NCBI GenBank assembly: GCA_951406725.2
Contig: OX597817.1
Location: 65,224,001 to 65,288,000, forward strand
Reading direction: 5' to 3'
Length of the DNA stretch: 64,000 nt
Source: Octopus vulgaris
Lineage: Eukaryota
This document shows positions 10,795 to 63,114 of this stretch, one piece after another. The notes beneath the pieces were generated by a model. It was given only the letters and a program-made list of their open reading frames with translations. It was not told the origin of the DNA and made no database searches. The position numbers and the translations under genes are program-made. Numbering within the stretch: the stretch's first letter is position 1; every line of letters begins with the position of its first letter.

Positions 10795-10945
10795 AAAGCA
10801 AATCAAGAATAAAAAGAAACAAGAAAAAACGACAAAAGTCAATTAGACGTAAACGATGACTATTCTGCACTGACGCTTGGTGACAGTTTTAAATGGGAAA
10901 ATAGCAGTTGAAATTACGTTTCGAGCATGGCTCCTCGTCGGAAAG
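10795..10945 (-). mobile_element. PLE-type 3' terminus with decayed hammerhead motif (about 10914-10945)
   Basis: Minus strand CCGACGA-G-GAGC-CAT-GCTC-GAAAC-GTA with weak stem I; T-rich tail ends at a TA-rich run. Confidence 0.55.
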
Positions 10946-11369
10946 AGGAAAAAGTCCATAGTGGAGGAAAAGGAGAAAGGAGCAGATAGTCTGGAGAAAA
11001 GCATGTATATGGCTGAAAAGAAAAATATATGTATACATACATGCATCCATCCATCCATCCATCCATCCATCCATCCATCCATCCATCCATCCATCCATCC
11101 ATACATACATTCATACATGTATGCATGTATGTATGTGTGCATATATATATATATACATAGGCATTACCGATACGTGCCAGACTTTTCAGTAACACCGTCG
11201 AATCTGTGTTCTTATGTACAAGTGACATGTAGGCTACAGCGAAGAGGACAGACCATCGATTGGCTGCGACACAAAGGGCCATGAAAAGATCCAGGTAAGG
11301 ATTGTCATTACGAGATCATACACAGCTACTTACACACACACATGCAAATGTACATAAGAACAGTAAATG

Positions 11370-11535
11370 GATCTCCATCGGTTTCGGCGATGATTAACCA
11401 GTTGTGCGATCAACTAAATTACTTGCTCATTGTATTAGCATGTAAATGACTGAGTATTCTAATAACATGTGTAGCCTCAATGTAATTCTATGGTAGATCA
11501 ACAATGTGACAACGTTGGTCGTTTGAATCATAAGT
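11370..11535 (-). mobile_element. Decayed 3' part of SINE family C
   Basis: Aligns by eye with 61262-61445. Confidence 0.55.
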
Positions 11536-11664
11536 AAAAATGTAACCGACAGGTTTCCACACAGTTTCCGTCTACCCAAGTATATGAGCAAAATTGTCAC
11601 AAACACGTGCGTGTAGGCACGCGCGCACACACACACACATACACGTGTGTGTGTGTATGAAAGC

Positions 11665-11795
11665 ACATGTCACAATGTTTAGAGCGTCGGACTTACAATC
11701 GTGAAGTTATGAGTTCGATTCTCGGCCCGCACTGAGAGTTGCGACGTCACTGCTGCCAAGTTGTATCGGCCTTTGCCTTTCTCTTGGACAACACA
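11665..11795 (+). mobile_element. tRNA-derived SINE family D, truncated copy
   Basis: B-box GAGTTCGATTCTC; body GTATCGGCCTTTGCCTTTCTCTTGGACAAC shared with the adjacent minus copy. Confidence 0.65.
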
Positions 11796-11799
11796 TTAT

Positions 11800-12063
11800 T
11801 AACACAGCATAGTCCGAGCAAGGTTGTTTGTGGAAGACCAGCAGTCGCCCATGCATACCAGTCTCTCCTCTCCATGCTACTGATGTTATCCAAAGGAAAG
11901 GCAAAAGCCGATGCACCTTGACACCAGTTACATCGCAAATCATTTCTACAGATGACTGTGAAATAACGCTGAAGAACACAACACATAGTGCAGTCCGGAA
12001 ATCGAACTCACAACCTCACGATTTGGGGTCCGACGATCTATCCATTGAACCATTCGCCTTCAC
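11800..12063 (-). mobile_element. tRNA-derived SINE family D
   Basis: Minus strand GTGAAGGCGAATGGTTCAATGGATAG...GAGTTCGATTTCC...GCATCGGCTTTTGCCTTTCCTTTGGATAAC. Confidence 0.7.
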
Positions 12064-12636
12064 ACAAACATACACATATACAATCACACACACACACATA
12101 TATACATGTGTTTGTATATGTGATGTGTGAGTGTGTGTGTGTGTGTGTGTGTGTGTGTGTGTGTGTGTTAGTCACAACTTACAGTTTGCACATACATTCT
12201 TACAATTATACGAAATCCAAAATATTCGCCCGAAACAACAAACCATACATCAAAATATAGCAAATTAAATTTGTAGGTTCCAAACATAATTCTACATCTC
12301 AAAAGAAAACGAATACTACCTACACGCACACACACACACACATCCTAGGAACGCAGAGGCACACCTGCCAACTCAGTAGAAACTCTCACGAAACTGTTGA
12401 AAACGACGACGATAATGATGATGAGGAAGGTGGCGGCGACAGTGGCAACAACAACAACAACAACAACAACTATAAATTACAAAAAAAACAAACATATATA
12501 TCCACTTCATTTTGGTGTCTAGAAGAACTCGTGTCGATCTCGCCACGGTTGTTGGTAAGTGAACATCAAGTGAGCCACAAATATGTTATGGTGTATGCAA
12601 AACATACCACTTAACATATACATACGTATATCTAGC

Positions 12637-12750
12637 TCTATCTATCTATCTATCTATCTATCTATCTATCTATCTATCTATCTATCTATCTATCTATCTA
12701 TCTATCTATCTATCTATCTATCTATCTATCTATCTATCTATCTATCTCTA
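12637..12750. repeat. (TCTA)n microsatellite
   Basis: Directly visible; similar arrays at 42871-42960 and 50031-50217. Confidence 0.95.
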
Positions 12751-59650: not shown

Positions 59651-59765
59651 AATTAGGACCAGATTTAGTGCCAAAATTACTATAAGCGACCAAAGTCACA
59701 ATTAGCGACCAAAATTACAATTAGAGATTAGCTCAATTAGTTACTAGTACAATTAGCGACTAGAA
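59651..59765. repeat. Degenerate ~19-bp minisatellite (ATTAGCGACCAAAATTACA)
   Basis: About three good units plus decayed units. Confidence 0.6.
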
Positions 59766-60879
59766 CCAAAATCCATTGTATCTTTATTCCTTCCAAGCCA
59801 ATTAGAGAACCGCCGCGTGTTCATTCGATCCGTTAGTGGAATTTGAGTGGCTGTGATCCATCATCCAAATCTTTCTTCAATCACATTCACTAGTTAAGAA
59901 GATGGAAGGACGCTTTAGATAATATTGTTTTTAGGCGGAGTTTTTCTCTGCTAATTGCATAGATAATAACAGTTAATTTAAGTTTTCAACTAGCTATTAT
60001 CACGTAAGGGAGGTCCTCCTATATGTATATTTAATAGACCAAACACTTCCCAGAAGTACTTTCTTTCAGCCATATTGTTTTACAGGTGGTGGCGTACATG
60101 TAATCAATTTACCTTTTCTTTCTTTCTTTTTTCCTTTCCGTTTCTTTAAAACTCTTTTCTTCTAGAAATCGACAAAGAACACAGGACAATCAAGTCAATT
60201 TATATGAATAATTTATAAATTCACTAGCAATGCTTCGGCGAGAATCAAGTAAAAACTTTGAGTCACATTAGCGAATTTTTTCAGACATATTGCATCTAGG
60301 ACTATATTATATAATCTGCTCTTCCATTTGTTTTTTTTTTTTTTTGGTTTAATTGACCTATGGTCAAAGCGTTCCACTCGTAACCATCCCTCTTTTTGTC
60401 AGTCATTGTGTATCTAGAAATATAAGTATTTTCCTTATTAGGGAAACATTACGTTCATAAAAAACGTAAGATCTTATTTTCTATTGATTTTCGTGTCATG
60501 GAAGTCACTGAACGAGCAAGCCAATGAGAAGCACTTTCGTGCTACGATATTCCACGCTTTGGTAAGATTTTCAAGAAAACAAGCCTTCCGTAACCGACAC
60601 TTTCGCGTTACGGAATGTTATTCATTGTGTCTTTCATGCTTGTAAAGATAGTAAGTGTCATATCAATGATGTTCAGCTGTTACTTCTGACAGGTCGACGT
60701 AAATGCTCCGAGGTGTTAAGTAGCAGGAATGTAGTAAAACTGACATGTGCTGCTTTAGATTACACATCTATGAGTGTGTGTGTCAATACATACATACATA
60801 CATACATACATACATACATACATACATACATACATACATACATACATACATACACACGCACACGCATACACATACATTT

Positions 60880-61250
60880 TTATCTTGTACTTGTTTCAGC
60901 CATTAGACTATAGCGATGCCCCAGCATCGCCATGAAGGTTTTAGTTGAACGAATCGACCTCAGTATTTCTTCAAGCCTGGTACAATTGGTCTCTTACGTC
61001 GAACCACTAAGTCACGGCAACCTAATGAGTCCATATACGATTGTCAGGCGGTGGTAGGAGACAGACACAAAGATAAAGACACATACACATAGATATATGC
61101 ATATATTTATATATTTATATATGTATTTATATATACGACGGATTCATTCACTTTCCGTCTTCTAAATCCTCTCACAAGGTGCCACCCAGTGGGACTGACC
61201 CTCGAACCGTGTGGATTGGAAGCAATCTTTTCGCTACACAACTACGCCTA
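60880..61250 (-). mobile_element. Decayed SINE family B
   Basis: TACTTGTTTCAG...CCTCTCACAAGG...GTGGGACTGACC. Confidence 0.7.
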
Positions 61251-61260
61251 TATATATGAG

Positions 61261-61655
61261 TGTGGCACTCCGTCGGTCACGACGACGCGGCTTCCAGTTG
61301 ATCCGATCCGATCAAGGGAACAGCCTGCTCGTGAAATTAACGTGCAAGTGGCTGAGCACTTCGCAGGCACGTGTACCCTTAACATAGTTCTCGGGGGGGG
61401 GGGGGGGATTCAGCGTGACACAGAGAGTGACAAGGCTGGCCCTTTGATATACAGTTACAACAGAAACAGGAAGAAAGAATGAGAGAAAGTTGTGGGGAAA
61501 GAGTACAGTAGGGTTCGCCACAACCCCCTGTCGGAGCCTCGTGGAGCCATAGGTGTTTTCGCTCAATAAACACTCACAACGCCCGGTCTGGGAATCGAAA
61601 CCACGATCCTACGACCGCGAGTCCGCTGCCCTAACAACTGGGCCATTGCGCCTCC
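61261..61655 (-). mobile_element. tRNA-derived SINE family C, full length
   Basis: Minus head GGAGGCGCAATGGCCCAGTTGTTAGGGCAGCGGAC...GGTTTCGATTCCC (A and B boxes, intact D-stem); abuts (CA)n. Confidence 0.85.
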
Positions 61656-62444
61656 ACACACACACACACACACACACACACACACACACACACACACACA
61701 CACACACACACACACACACACGCACATACACACACACATATAAAAATGAAGGCGGGCTAACGAAGAAAAAAACGTAAGTGGTTGTTCAACCTACTTGATA
61801 CTATATTTCCCCCTCAAATAATACTCTGCGGTCTTAGATGGAGAGAAAAGTGTTGGAGATATATATGCCTCTGGTTACGTAGAAAGGCCTAGTTAAACAG
61901 GACTACATCATTTTTAAGCAGTATCTACACGAACAGGGTTGTTTTGAGCTGAAAACCACCACTACCACTGCCACCAACACCTTCACAAGATAAGCACCCA
62001 CATGAAGGTGACACTTTTACTGGTATCGCTACAACTCAGAAGAGGGTATGGCACTTACCTTTCTACTGTTGCAATTAATATGTTCAAGTTAATATACCTG
62101 GCATACTTAGATGATCGGCGCTGTAAGACGGAAATGCCAGCCTGTAAGATATACGCGCTCAGTTACAGACATACAGACAGAGGCACACACACATGTACTT
62201 GTACACACACCTATACACAAGCATTTATCAAAATTTAAACTGACGCTGATTGTCTGTCTCCCGACACGAATTTCAATAGGAAGTCGATCCTCTATAACAT
62301 GTATTGAGTACTCAATTCCTTCATCATTCATTCAACAGAAAGCAACGTATATATTTCATCATGTTGAACCGTTAACCCCAACACATACTTTTCTCTCAGT
62401 CTTTTTCTTTTCATTCTCTCTCTGTTTATTTTCCCCTCTTAAAC

Positions 62445-62480
62445 CTTTCTGTCGAAGAGCGTAGGCTCGAAACGTCAAAG
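62445..62480 (+). ncRNA. Minimal hammerhead motif (CUGUCGA core) in a PLE terminus spanning about 62445-62575
   Basis: CTTT-CTGTCGA-A-GAGC-GTAG-GCTC-GAAAC-GTC-AAAG: stems I and II intact, palindromic ACGT stem III, GUC site; followed after about 100 nt by (TA)n. Confidence 0.7.
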
Positions 62481-63114
62481 ACTTTAGCATTTTTCTCGAG
62501 CATTAAACCAATACACCCCCTTGTTGTTCCTACACCTGTCTTCGGCTTTTGTTTTCTGCGAATTTGAACTATATCTTCGAATATGTATATATATATATAT
62601 ATATATATATATATATATATATATATATATATATATATATATATATATATATATATATATATATATATATATATATATATATATATATATATATACATAT
62701 ACATATATGTATGTATGTATGTTTTATATGTTTATATACACACAAGCTTATATGCACACAAATAGTACGCGAACATGTATGTGTATGTTTGTATATATAT
62801 GTAAATACACAGAGAGAGAGGCATATACTCATATATAAAAGTAATGATGTGTGAATATTAGTAATATATATATATATATATATATATATATATATATATA
62901 TATATATATATATATATATATATGCATATATATATATATACATACATAAAAAAATATACTCTTCGTTTTTCCGTTGTCAGCGGATGCCAGAGAGAAATCA
63001 TATGATAAAGTTGATTTCTAAAAACTGTAAAATGACGTGTAGGAGTCTATTTCAAATATGTTCTCTCTCCACATGCAAAAGCTTTTATATTAATGTACTC
63101 CACTCTGAAATATA

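What the first reader, a model, noticed from the sequence alone, without database searches (positions are those of the whole stretch)
10795..62580. Dispersed hammerhead + short tail + (TA)n modules: a ribozyme-bearing, TA-targeted Penelope-type system
Seen: hammerhead-like motifs at about 10914(-), 20885(-), 21195(-)/21229(+), 33630(-), 56769(+), 57108(-) and 62445(+). In most, a T-rich tail of ~75-120 nt follows the ribozyme and ends at a (TA)n array. The better-preserved motifs have a very short palindromic stem III. Only the 56769 copy is attached to recognisable PLE coding sequence. Established: PLEs carry minimal type-I hammerheads in their terminal repeats, these cleave as dimers, and some PLEs prefer simple AT repeats. 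Inference: several distinct PLE families, or short non-autonomous ribozyme-bearing derivatives (retrozyme-like), are spread at roughly one per 10 kb, so any transcript crossing the region could carry potential self-cleaving sites.
Basis: partly seen in the sequence, partly recalled or inferred. Interest (0 to 1): 0.75.

Follow-up and report, generated by a model that had tools for sequence, protein, structure and literature searches.

The report
Penelope retroelement ends bearing hammerhead ribozymes
The self-cutting-RNA motifs scattered through this animal DNA are short ends of at least three families of a known jumping gene (Penelope-like elements) that land in TA repeats; most are likely by-products copied from an RNA with a fixed front end, and the commonest family carries an unusual core change whose cutting activity is untested.

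Summary
Six of the seven motif sites are real; 57108 has no intact core. They belong to three Penelope-like (PLE) families, each traced to coding parents in this genome. Family A (Neptune-type, about 1 per 21 kb; 10941, 20916, 33661, 62449) and family C (decayed Neptune-type; 56772) are old. Family B (Hydra clade, intact 3.36-kb copies; 21228/21240) is young. TA targeting is confirmed. This is a known kind, and this scan noted it before on other DNA of this genome. Two points are less ordinary. (1) Short copies share a fixed 5' boundary: in family B, 61 of 82 arms that reach it stop 5-23 nt before the ribozyme core, against 0 of 25 ORF-bearing copies; family A shows a similar pile-up. This points to a template RNA with a defined 5' end, not to a self-copying retrozyme. 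(2) The commonest family-A ribozyme has U at core position 6 (A6U) while position 7 varies freely; I found no report of this variant. Cleavage and expression are untested. Head-to-head modules fold into a hairpin that buries the ribozyme, so widespread host-RNA cutting looks unlikely.

The parts
10795..11025 (-). Decayed family-A module (A6-type core, position 3 at 10941, predicted cut 10915/10914); outer stem I pair broken; 5' limit approximate
20794..20986 (-). Family-A module, A6-type subfamily with U4C core (position 3 at 20916, predicted cut 20889/20888), TA arrays on both sides (20762-20793, 20987-21000); 5' end at the subfamily's common boundary
21091..21231 (-). Family-B (Hydra clade) long arm: hammerhead (position 3 at 21228) plus 108 nt ending at the tail end (+137), joined to (TA)n 21003-21090
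21231..21306 (+). Family-B short arm: hammerhead (position 3 at 21240) plus 37 nt ending at the element's core end (+66), joined to (TA)n 21307-21358; head-to-head with the long arm
33526..33669 (-). Family-A module with A6U core (position 3 at 33661, predicted cut after 33634), 5'-truncated just before stem I, TA array 33510-33525
54701..56120 (+). Decayed family-C PLE coding remnant: N-terminal GxKF-like and DKG motifs joined by an internal deletion to the second half of the GIY-YIG endonuclease; 5' limit not mapped
56121..56974 (+). Family-C 3' UTR with expanded internal microsatellites, U3-A8 hammerhead (position 3 at 56772, predicted cut 56804/56805), internal TA expansion 56809-56850, true 3' end 56974 before (TA)n 56975-57035
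57036..57165 (-). Decayed relative of the family-B tail next to (TA)n; hammerhead core not intact; not counted as a ribozyme
62356..62569 (+). Family-A module with A6U core (position 3 at 62449, predicted cut 62476/62477), starting near the family's common 5' boundary, followed by a short TA run and (TA)n 62586-62695

Best explanation
The modules are short copies of the ribozyme-bearing ends of three Penelope-like retrotransposon families inserted at (TA)n, likely made when the element's enzyme cuts a TA repeat, starts reverse transcription at fixed sites inside its own RNA just past the ribozyme, and runs off a fixed RNA 5' end a short way upstream. Shown: family membership, coding parents, fixed 3' ends at TA, two 3' ends in family B (+66 and +137, counting core position 3 as 0), head-to-head pairing of one short with one long arm, and the 5' pile-up. 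Inferred: each side of the cut primes one cDNA (one per start site); the two cDNAs are joined head to head by microhomology, often at a 4-nt palindrome at -14; the template's 5' end lies at -17 in family B and about 60-90 nt before the core in family A. That end is most likely a transcription start (about 50%), otherwise a nuclease-trimmed edge of the protein-bound ribozyme (about 30%) or a reverse-transcription effect (about 20%). Long coding copies would come from tandem, read-through or circular templates that lack this end. The modules would mostly be dead ends, not replicating RNAs.
For: Family B parent: 3364-bp unit with an open 727-codon frame carrying RWK, DKT, CxCx5C, CxxC and CxH; intact frames of that length in 3 of 10 long loci; 1076 relatives, with DKT in 118 and the CxC linker in 114 of the best 120. 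Family A parent: RT motifs, a Cx4CxxC-type linker and GIY-YIG upstream of the module in L212, L002, L334, L335. Family C: same linker and CCHH-type endonuclease. Copy numbers: 4706 exact tail ends at TA against 322 for a mid-ORF 28-mer; 17,870 exact family-A 22-mers. In the first 90 tail-ended copies on C1: 65 have an inverted short arm, 53 of 65 align to the same short end, 63 of 65 modules are under 300 bp, and 61 of 82 arms at risk end at -23..-5 against 59 of 422 in six neighbouring windows. Picked by the short end instead: 19 of 20 inverted partners end at the tail end, and 9 of 20 arms at risk end at -23..-5 against 1 of 11 in the next window. Control: 0 of 25 ORF-bearing copies that reach -5 stop there. 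No 5' end pile-up at the cleavage site +30, as in Frangieh 2024, where uncut RNA is the main template and two internal start sites make the tail. Family A: 14 of 26 copies at risk end in one 15-nt window; A6-type subfamilies show a similar common start by eye.
Against: No RNA 5' end was seen: no run on record as RNA, contigs only. A plain start at -17 predicts ORF-bearing copies beginning at -17, and none of 25 do; three begin at about -25 to -30. An extra G from a cap was not found in the copies joined straight to TA, and most G cases are explained by the partner arm. The -14 mode is inflated by the self-complementary 4-mer. -17 is also the foot of an extended stem I, so structure could set it. 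The family-A profile was built from long copies, 9 of which are in the at-risk set. All family-B samples come from the start of one contig and need exact 24-28-nt matches, so they favour younger copies.
Confidence: 0.75

Rival explanations
1. The short modules are a self-propagating non-autonomous family (retrozyme- or MITE-like), re-copied as units by PLE enzymes.
For: Short copies outnumber coding ones at least 14 to 1; fixed ends on both sides; animal retrozymes are argued to derive from PLE ends (first fifth read); one junction type recurs (10 of 30; six perfect -14/-14 joins).
Against: Junctions are diverse across 65 modules and occur on several subfamily backgrounds. The recurring joins sit on microhomology. 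No head-to-tail repeats in the window, whereas retrozymes are 150-450-bp tandems. The inverted module folds into a 70-bp duplex that hides the ribozyme.
Confidence: 0.12
2. Ordinary random 5' truncation; the pile-up is an artefact of a palindrome, fold-back, or a reverse-transcription stall at the ribozyme structure (self-priming model).
For: Head-to-head palindromic junctions were read as self-priming in Arkhipova 2013 (passages); the mode at -14 coincides with a self-complementary 4-mer; a few copies switch between the two strands of stem I (L265).
Against: Copies with no inverted arm also start in this zone (-17, -13, -8, -7). ORF-bearing copies cross it freely, 0 of 25. No stable hairpin is predicted just upstream of -17 (z = 0.01 for the region). 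Fold-back of one cDNA does not explain why the second arm ends at its own fixed site.
Confidence: 0.1
3. The motifs are kept by the host as dispersed self-cleavage sites that regulate transcripts.
For: Very high density; core positions 3, 5, 8 and 9 kept in 65 of 66 copies.
Against: Conservation reflects the source elements: old copies decay (10941, 57108; 70-90% identity). Minimal motifs showed no cleavage as monomers and low cleavage as dimers, and one needed the element's protein. A6C strongly lowers activity in Mg2+.
Confidence: 0.03

Closest known systems
Hydra-clade PLEs (Craig et al. 2021, PMC8557442; passages, section 11 and supplement part 2 of 59 read)
   Same: Family B: RWK, DKT, CxCx5C linker, CxxC and CxH, canonical hammerhead, (TA)n insertion. 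Its stem I and stem III layout matches Hydra-2_aMil. An inverted 5'-truncated copy is listed for Penelope-13_HM, and an octopus member (Hydra-1_Obim) is already listed.
   Different: Different hammerhead sequence from Hydra-1_Obim, so a separate family; 3.36 kb rather than under 3 kb; young and abundant; a 71-nt tail rather than 30-40 nt; a dominant class of ~200-bp two-armed stubs with a fixed 5' boundary, not described in the parts read.
Minimal type I hammerheads of animal PLEs (Cervera and de la Pena 2014, PMC4209133; parts 1-2 of 4 and supplement passages read; one supplement file could not be searched)
   Same: Extra base between 9 and 10.1, G10.1-C11.1 pair, palindromic 15.2-16.2, short stem I, mostly single dispersed motifs, opposite-strand pairs 100-700 bp apart; the U3-A8 variant equals family C.
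   Different: Their consensus keeps A6; the main family-A subfamilies have U6. Family B lacks the 10.1-11.1 pair, as other Hydra-clade motifs do.
Neptune-clade PLEs (features as summarised in Craig 2021)
   Same: Families A and C: C-terminal GIY-YIG, zinc-finger linker, CCHH-type endonuclease, microsatellite bias.
   Different: No intact copy of A or C was recovered; clade call rests on motifs, not on a tree.
Poseidon of Anolis (Frangieh et al. 2024, PMC11167929; parts 1-2 of 4 read)
   Same: Two internal start sites that define the tail; both target strands cut and extended; uncut RNA as template.
   Different: Different clade and target; the paper does not, in the parts read, describe run-off at a fixed RNA 5' end or the one-short, one-long arm rule.
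Animal non-LTR retrozymes (PMC7229834, passages; bioRxiv 10.64898/2026.07.22.740005, part 1 of 5)
   Same: Short, non-coding, type I hammerhead, tied to PLEs.
   Different: Retrozymes are head-to-tail tandems giving circular RNA; these modules are single or head-to-head and continue into PLE 3' UTRs and ORFs.

Membership tests
Hydra-clade PLE (family B) | Single ORF with RT and C-terminal GIY-YIG-type endonuclease between pseudo-LTRs | tested here: met
   Pfam gave no hit, so the domains rest on motifs and on relatives
Hydra-clade PLE (family B) | RWK, DKT in place of DKG, CxCx5C linker, CxxC and CxH | tested here: met
Hydra-clade PLE (family B) | Canonical hammerhead and (TA)n insertion | tested here: met
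Hydra-clade PLE (family B) | Placement in the Hydra clade on an RT tree | not tested
   no reference sequences were loaded; length (3.36 kb) exceeds the usual <3 kb
Neptune-clade PLE (families A, C) | RT followed by a Cx2-5CxxC linker and a CCHH-type GIY-YIG endonuclease | tested here: met
   read from decayed copies
Neptune-clade PLE (families A, C) | Placement on an RT tree; intact full-length copy | not tested
   no intact copy recovered
Minimal type I hammerhead | Core, stems I and II, palindromic stem III, NUH site | tested here: met
   for 20916, 33661, 56772, 62449; not met for 57108; stem I broken at 10941
Minimal type I hammerhead | A at core position 6 | tested here: not met
   U in 29 of 30 and 49 of 66 family-A copies; met in families B, C and the A6-type subfamilies
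Minimal type I hammerhead | Stem covariation | tested here: inconclusive
   one stem I pair changes on both sides (C-G 26, G-C 9, A-U 2, 12 unpaired of 52; 0 of 500 shuffles); stems II and III were fixed by the selection, and relatedness inflates the score
Minimal type I hammerhead | Self-cleavage as a dimer | not testable with these tools
   needs an assay
Non-LTR retrozyme | Head-to-tail tandem of 150-450-bp units, each with a hammerhead | tested here: not met
Non-LTR retrozyme | No coding parent sharing the sequence | tested here: not met
Non-LTR retrozyme | Circular monomer RNA | not testable with these tools
   only contigs of runs not on record as RNA

The most novel reading that the evidence does not exclude
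PLEs make a discrete leader RNA that starts just before the hammerhead, is never cut, and is reverse-transcribed from two start sites into both ends of a broken TA repeat, which accounts for most of the ~100,000 modules; and the dominant Neptune lineage has kept an A6U hammerhead under selection, an active core variant that may depend on the element's protein or on a metal other than Mg2+.
Probability: 0.3. Interest if true: 0.65.

Novelty: new member of a known kind. Interest (0 to 1): 0.4.

Why it matters
How PLEs make inverted insertions, and what their hammerheads do, is still open. A young Hydra-clade family with intact copies and thousands of near-identical two-armed stubs gives exact predictions: start sites at +66 and +137 and an RNA 5' end at -17. 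These can be tested with one protein and one RNA. A6U with a free position 7 across many subfamilies suggests selection on a core change that should hurt catalysis, so it tests whether PLE hammerheads must cut at all or serve as a protein-binding fold. The stubs also seed thousands of perfect RNA hairpins, possible substrates for RNA editing or silencing (inference).

Tried and rejected
Rfam scan: dominated by microsatellite matches, no hammerhead among the 150 rows shown. Whole-window repeat finder: only microsatellites. First family-B sample: its junction pattern and a C/T difference between arms were discarded because the query began inside this copy's junction and biased the hits; replaced by samples picked on the 3' ends only. 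First pass at inverted arms and at family-A 5' ends was confounded by microsatellites and redone; one of 90 long arms (L288) was left out of the long-arm count, and 10 of 19 random family-A hits were left out (6 other subfamilies or unplaced cores listed there, 2 skipped, 2 truncated after the core). Splice acceptor at -11 as the 5' boundary: rejected because arms reach -17 and an older subfamily lacks the AG. Cleaved RNA as template: no pile-up at +30. Cap-derived G: inconclusive. Expression: no RNA holder listed; contigs of runs guessed to be RNA cover the element and family A but cannot show starts, strand or level. Pfam found nothing in the family-B protein. Lunse et al. (dimer-cleaving variants) is not held; only its title was seen in a reference list, so A6U may be described there. 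Searches for A6U in print: 0 papers; 12 of 35 listed, none relevant by title; octopus hammerheads. PMC3088659 and PMC7151607: passages only. PMC2377424: passages only.
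Full report
Setting. The window is microsatellite-rich animal DNA with 66 TA arrays of five or more units. Its genome has 2.8 billion bases in 227 contigs, about 30 of them large; an octopus is my inference. Positions below count hammerhead core base 3 as 0.

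Observation. Seven motifs at six loci are present. A structure descriptor finds four of them in the window against at most one in 20 shuffles, and 16 in 400 kb of evenly spaced stretches against 0-4 in five shuffle sets. The site at 57108 is a decayed relative of the family-B tail without an intact core, and is single in the genome search. The TA array right after the 56772 motif is internal; relatives run on about 170 nt to an end that matches 56974.

Family A (10941, 20916, 33661, 62449). A search with the 62449 module gave 3036 candidates, of which 40 were scored; other copies were 86-90% identical and shared a fixed 3' end at TA. An exact 22-mer occurs 17,870 times, control 0. A profile finds 19 copies in 400 kb, which scales to roughly 130,000. 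Of the first 30 exact copies on C1, 18 have (TA)4 at 85-125 nt after the cut site, against 2.8% of random positions. Upstream of long copies lie RT motifs, a cysteine linker and a GIY-YIG endonuclease of Neptune type. The core is unusual. Among 66 copies picked by stem II and the second core box, position 6 is U in 49, A in 16 and C in 1, position 7 takes all four bases, and positions 3, 5, 8 and 9 are kept in 65 (30 loci came from a pattern that fixed positions 8 and 9). U6 goes with one loop II type, A6 mostly with another. One stem I pair covaries among subfamilies. A free position 7 beside a fixed U6 looks like selection on the source elements (inference). The extra base after A9 and the palindromic stem III are known features. 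A6C is a known natural variant with low activity in Mg2+ and a preference for Mn2+. I found no A6U report, but the most relevant paper could not be read.

Family C (56772). It is the 3' UTR of the decayed element at about 54700-56120, whose RT core is deleted. Relatives are 71-87% identical and show a Neptune-type linker and endonuclease. The core is the U3-A8 variant already reported for PLEs.

Family B (21228/21240). The parent is an intact 3364-bp element with all the listed Hydra-clade motifs. An octopus Hydra family with TA preference is already listed, with a different hammerhead. The element ends at +66; many copies carry a further 71 nt of the 5' UTR and end at +137. Alignments of the short end run to +71 because the next template bases resemble TA. 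Exact tail ends at TA number 4706, short ends of one allele 1760, and a mid-ORF 28-mer 322. In 90 consecutive tail-ended copies, 65 have an inverted short arm, 53 of the 65 align to the same short end, and the median module is 207 bp. Picked from the other side, 19 of 20 inverted partners are tail-ended. Two start sites and extension of both target strands are what Frangieh et al. saw in vitro for a Poseidon element.

Fixed 5' boundary. Of 82 arms that reach -5, 61 end between -5 and -23, against 59 of 422 in six neighbouring windows. The commonest ends are -14 to -17, and few go beyond. Copies without an inverted partner also start there. Of 25 ORF-bearing copies that reach -5, none stops there (best 30 of 153 candidates). 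There is no pile-up at the cleavage site. Family A shows a pile-up too: 14 of 26 copies at risk end in one 15-nt window about 60-85 nt before the core. The simplest reading is a template RNA with a defined 5' end. Position -17 lies in an initiator-like hexamer (consensus recalled; a one-mismatch match occurs at 2.1% of positions), and similar hexamers lie near the family-A boundaries, seen by eye. It is also the foot of an extended stem I. A test for a cap-derived G was inconclusive: 312 copies have a non-template base at -18, G in 38 of the first 100, but most G cases seen are explained by the partner arm. The lack of ORF-bearing copies starting at -17 counts against a plain full-length mRNA start and fits a short or trimmed RNA.

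Mechanism. Shown: parents, fixed 3' ends, TA targets, the arm rule and the 5' pile-up. Inferred: cutting of (TA)n, priming from both ends at the two start sites, run-off at the RNA 5' end, and head-to-head joining by microhomology. Long copies would need tandem, read-through or circular templates; 9 or 10 of the 30 copies are tandem. The window's module folds as a 70-bp duplex (-128.8 kcal/mol, z = -24), so its ribozymes would be buried in any transcript that crosses it.

Comparison and verdict. This works like, and by motifs belongs to, known PLE clades; it fails the retrozyme test. Earlier notes of this scan describe PLE hammerheads in TA repeats and the two-end rule on other DNA of this genome; look-ups by this module's sequence and by A6U found nothing. 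I reached the two-end rule before reading them. The additions here are the controlled 5' boundary and the A6U core. Nothing about cleavage or expression was shown. Interest 0.4.

Noticed in passing
window 13303-13857 (-): Open frame that resembles the C-terminal part of a LINE reverse transcriptase (resemblance recalled, not tested).
   Followed up: no
window 23950-24474 and 29391-30179 (+): Fragments that resemble a non-LTR element with a restriction-enzyme-like endonuclease (resemblance recalled).
   Followed up: no
window 7616-7921 (+): A 101-codon open stretch of ordinary composition, possibly a host exon; host gene context of the window was not worked out.
   Followed up: no
L201:6800-7400: A head-to-head pair of another hammerhead family (5-6 bp stem II) around an inverted tRNA-like sequence, between (ATT)n arrays rather than (TA)n.
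   Followed up: no
L220:3135-5927, L153:6430-6969, L173:8943-9473: Other Hydra-type coding fragments at 35-69% protein identity to family B, so several Hydra lineages live in this genome.
   Followed up: no
L224-L313 (family B hammerheads): Older subfamilies carry U4C (34 of 80 motifs) and a fully paired 3-bp stem II; the youngest has U4 and an A-A mismatch at the base of stem II.
   Followed up: partly
window 20762-21358 and 54700-57165; L034, L048, L050: Modules of different families sit back to back on shared TA arrays, as expected if each insertion leaves a fresh target.
   Followed up: partly
L053:1300-1358, L034: Rare family-B copies end further into the 5' UTR (about +150 and +196), possibly minor start sites.
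   Followed up: partly
L155: A stretch with frames over 600 codons open on both strands, probably a tandem repeat next to a family-B copy.
   Followed up: no
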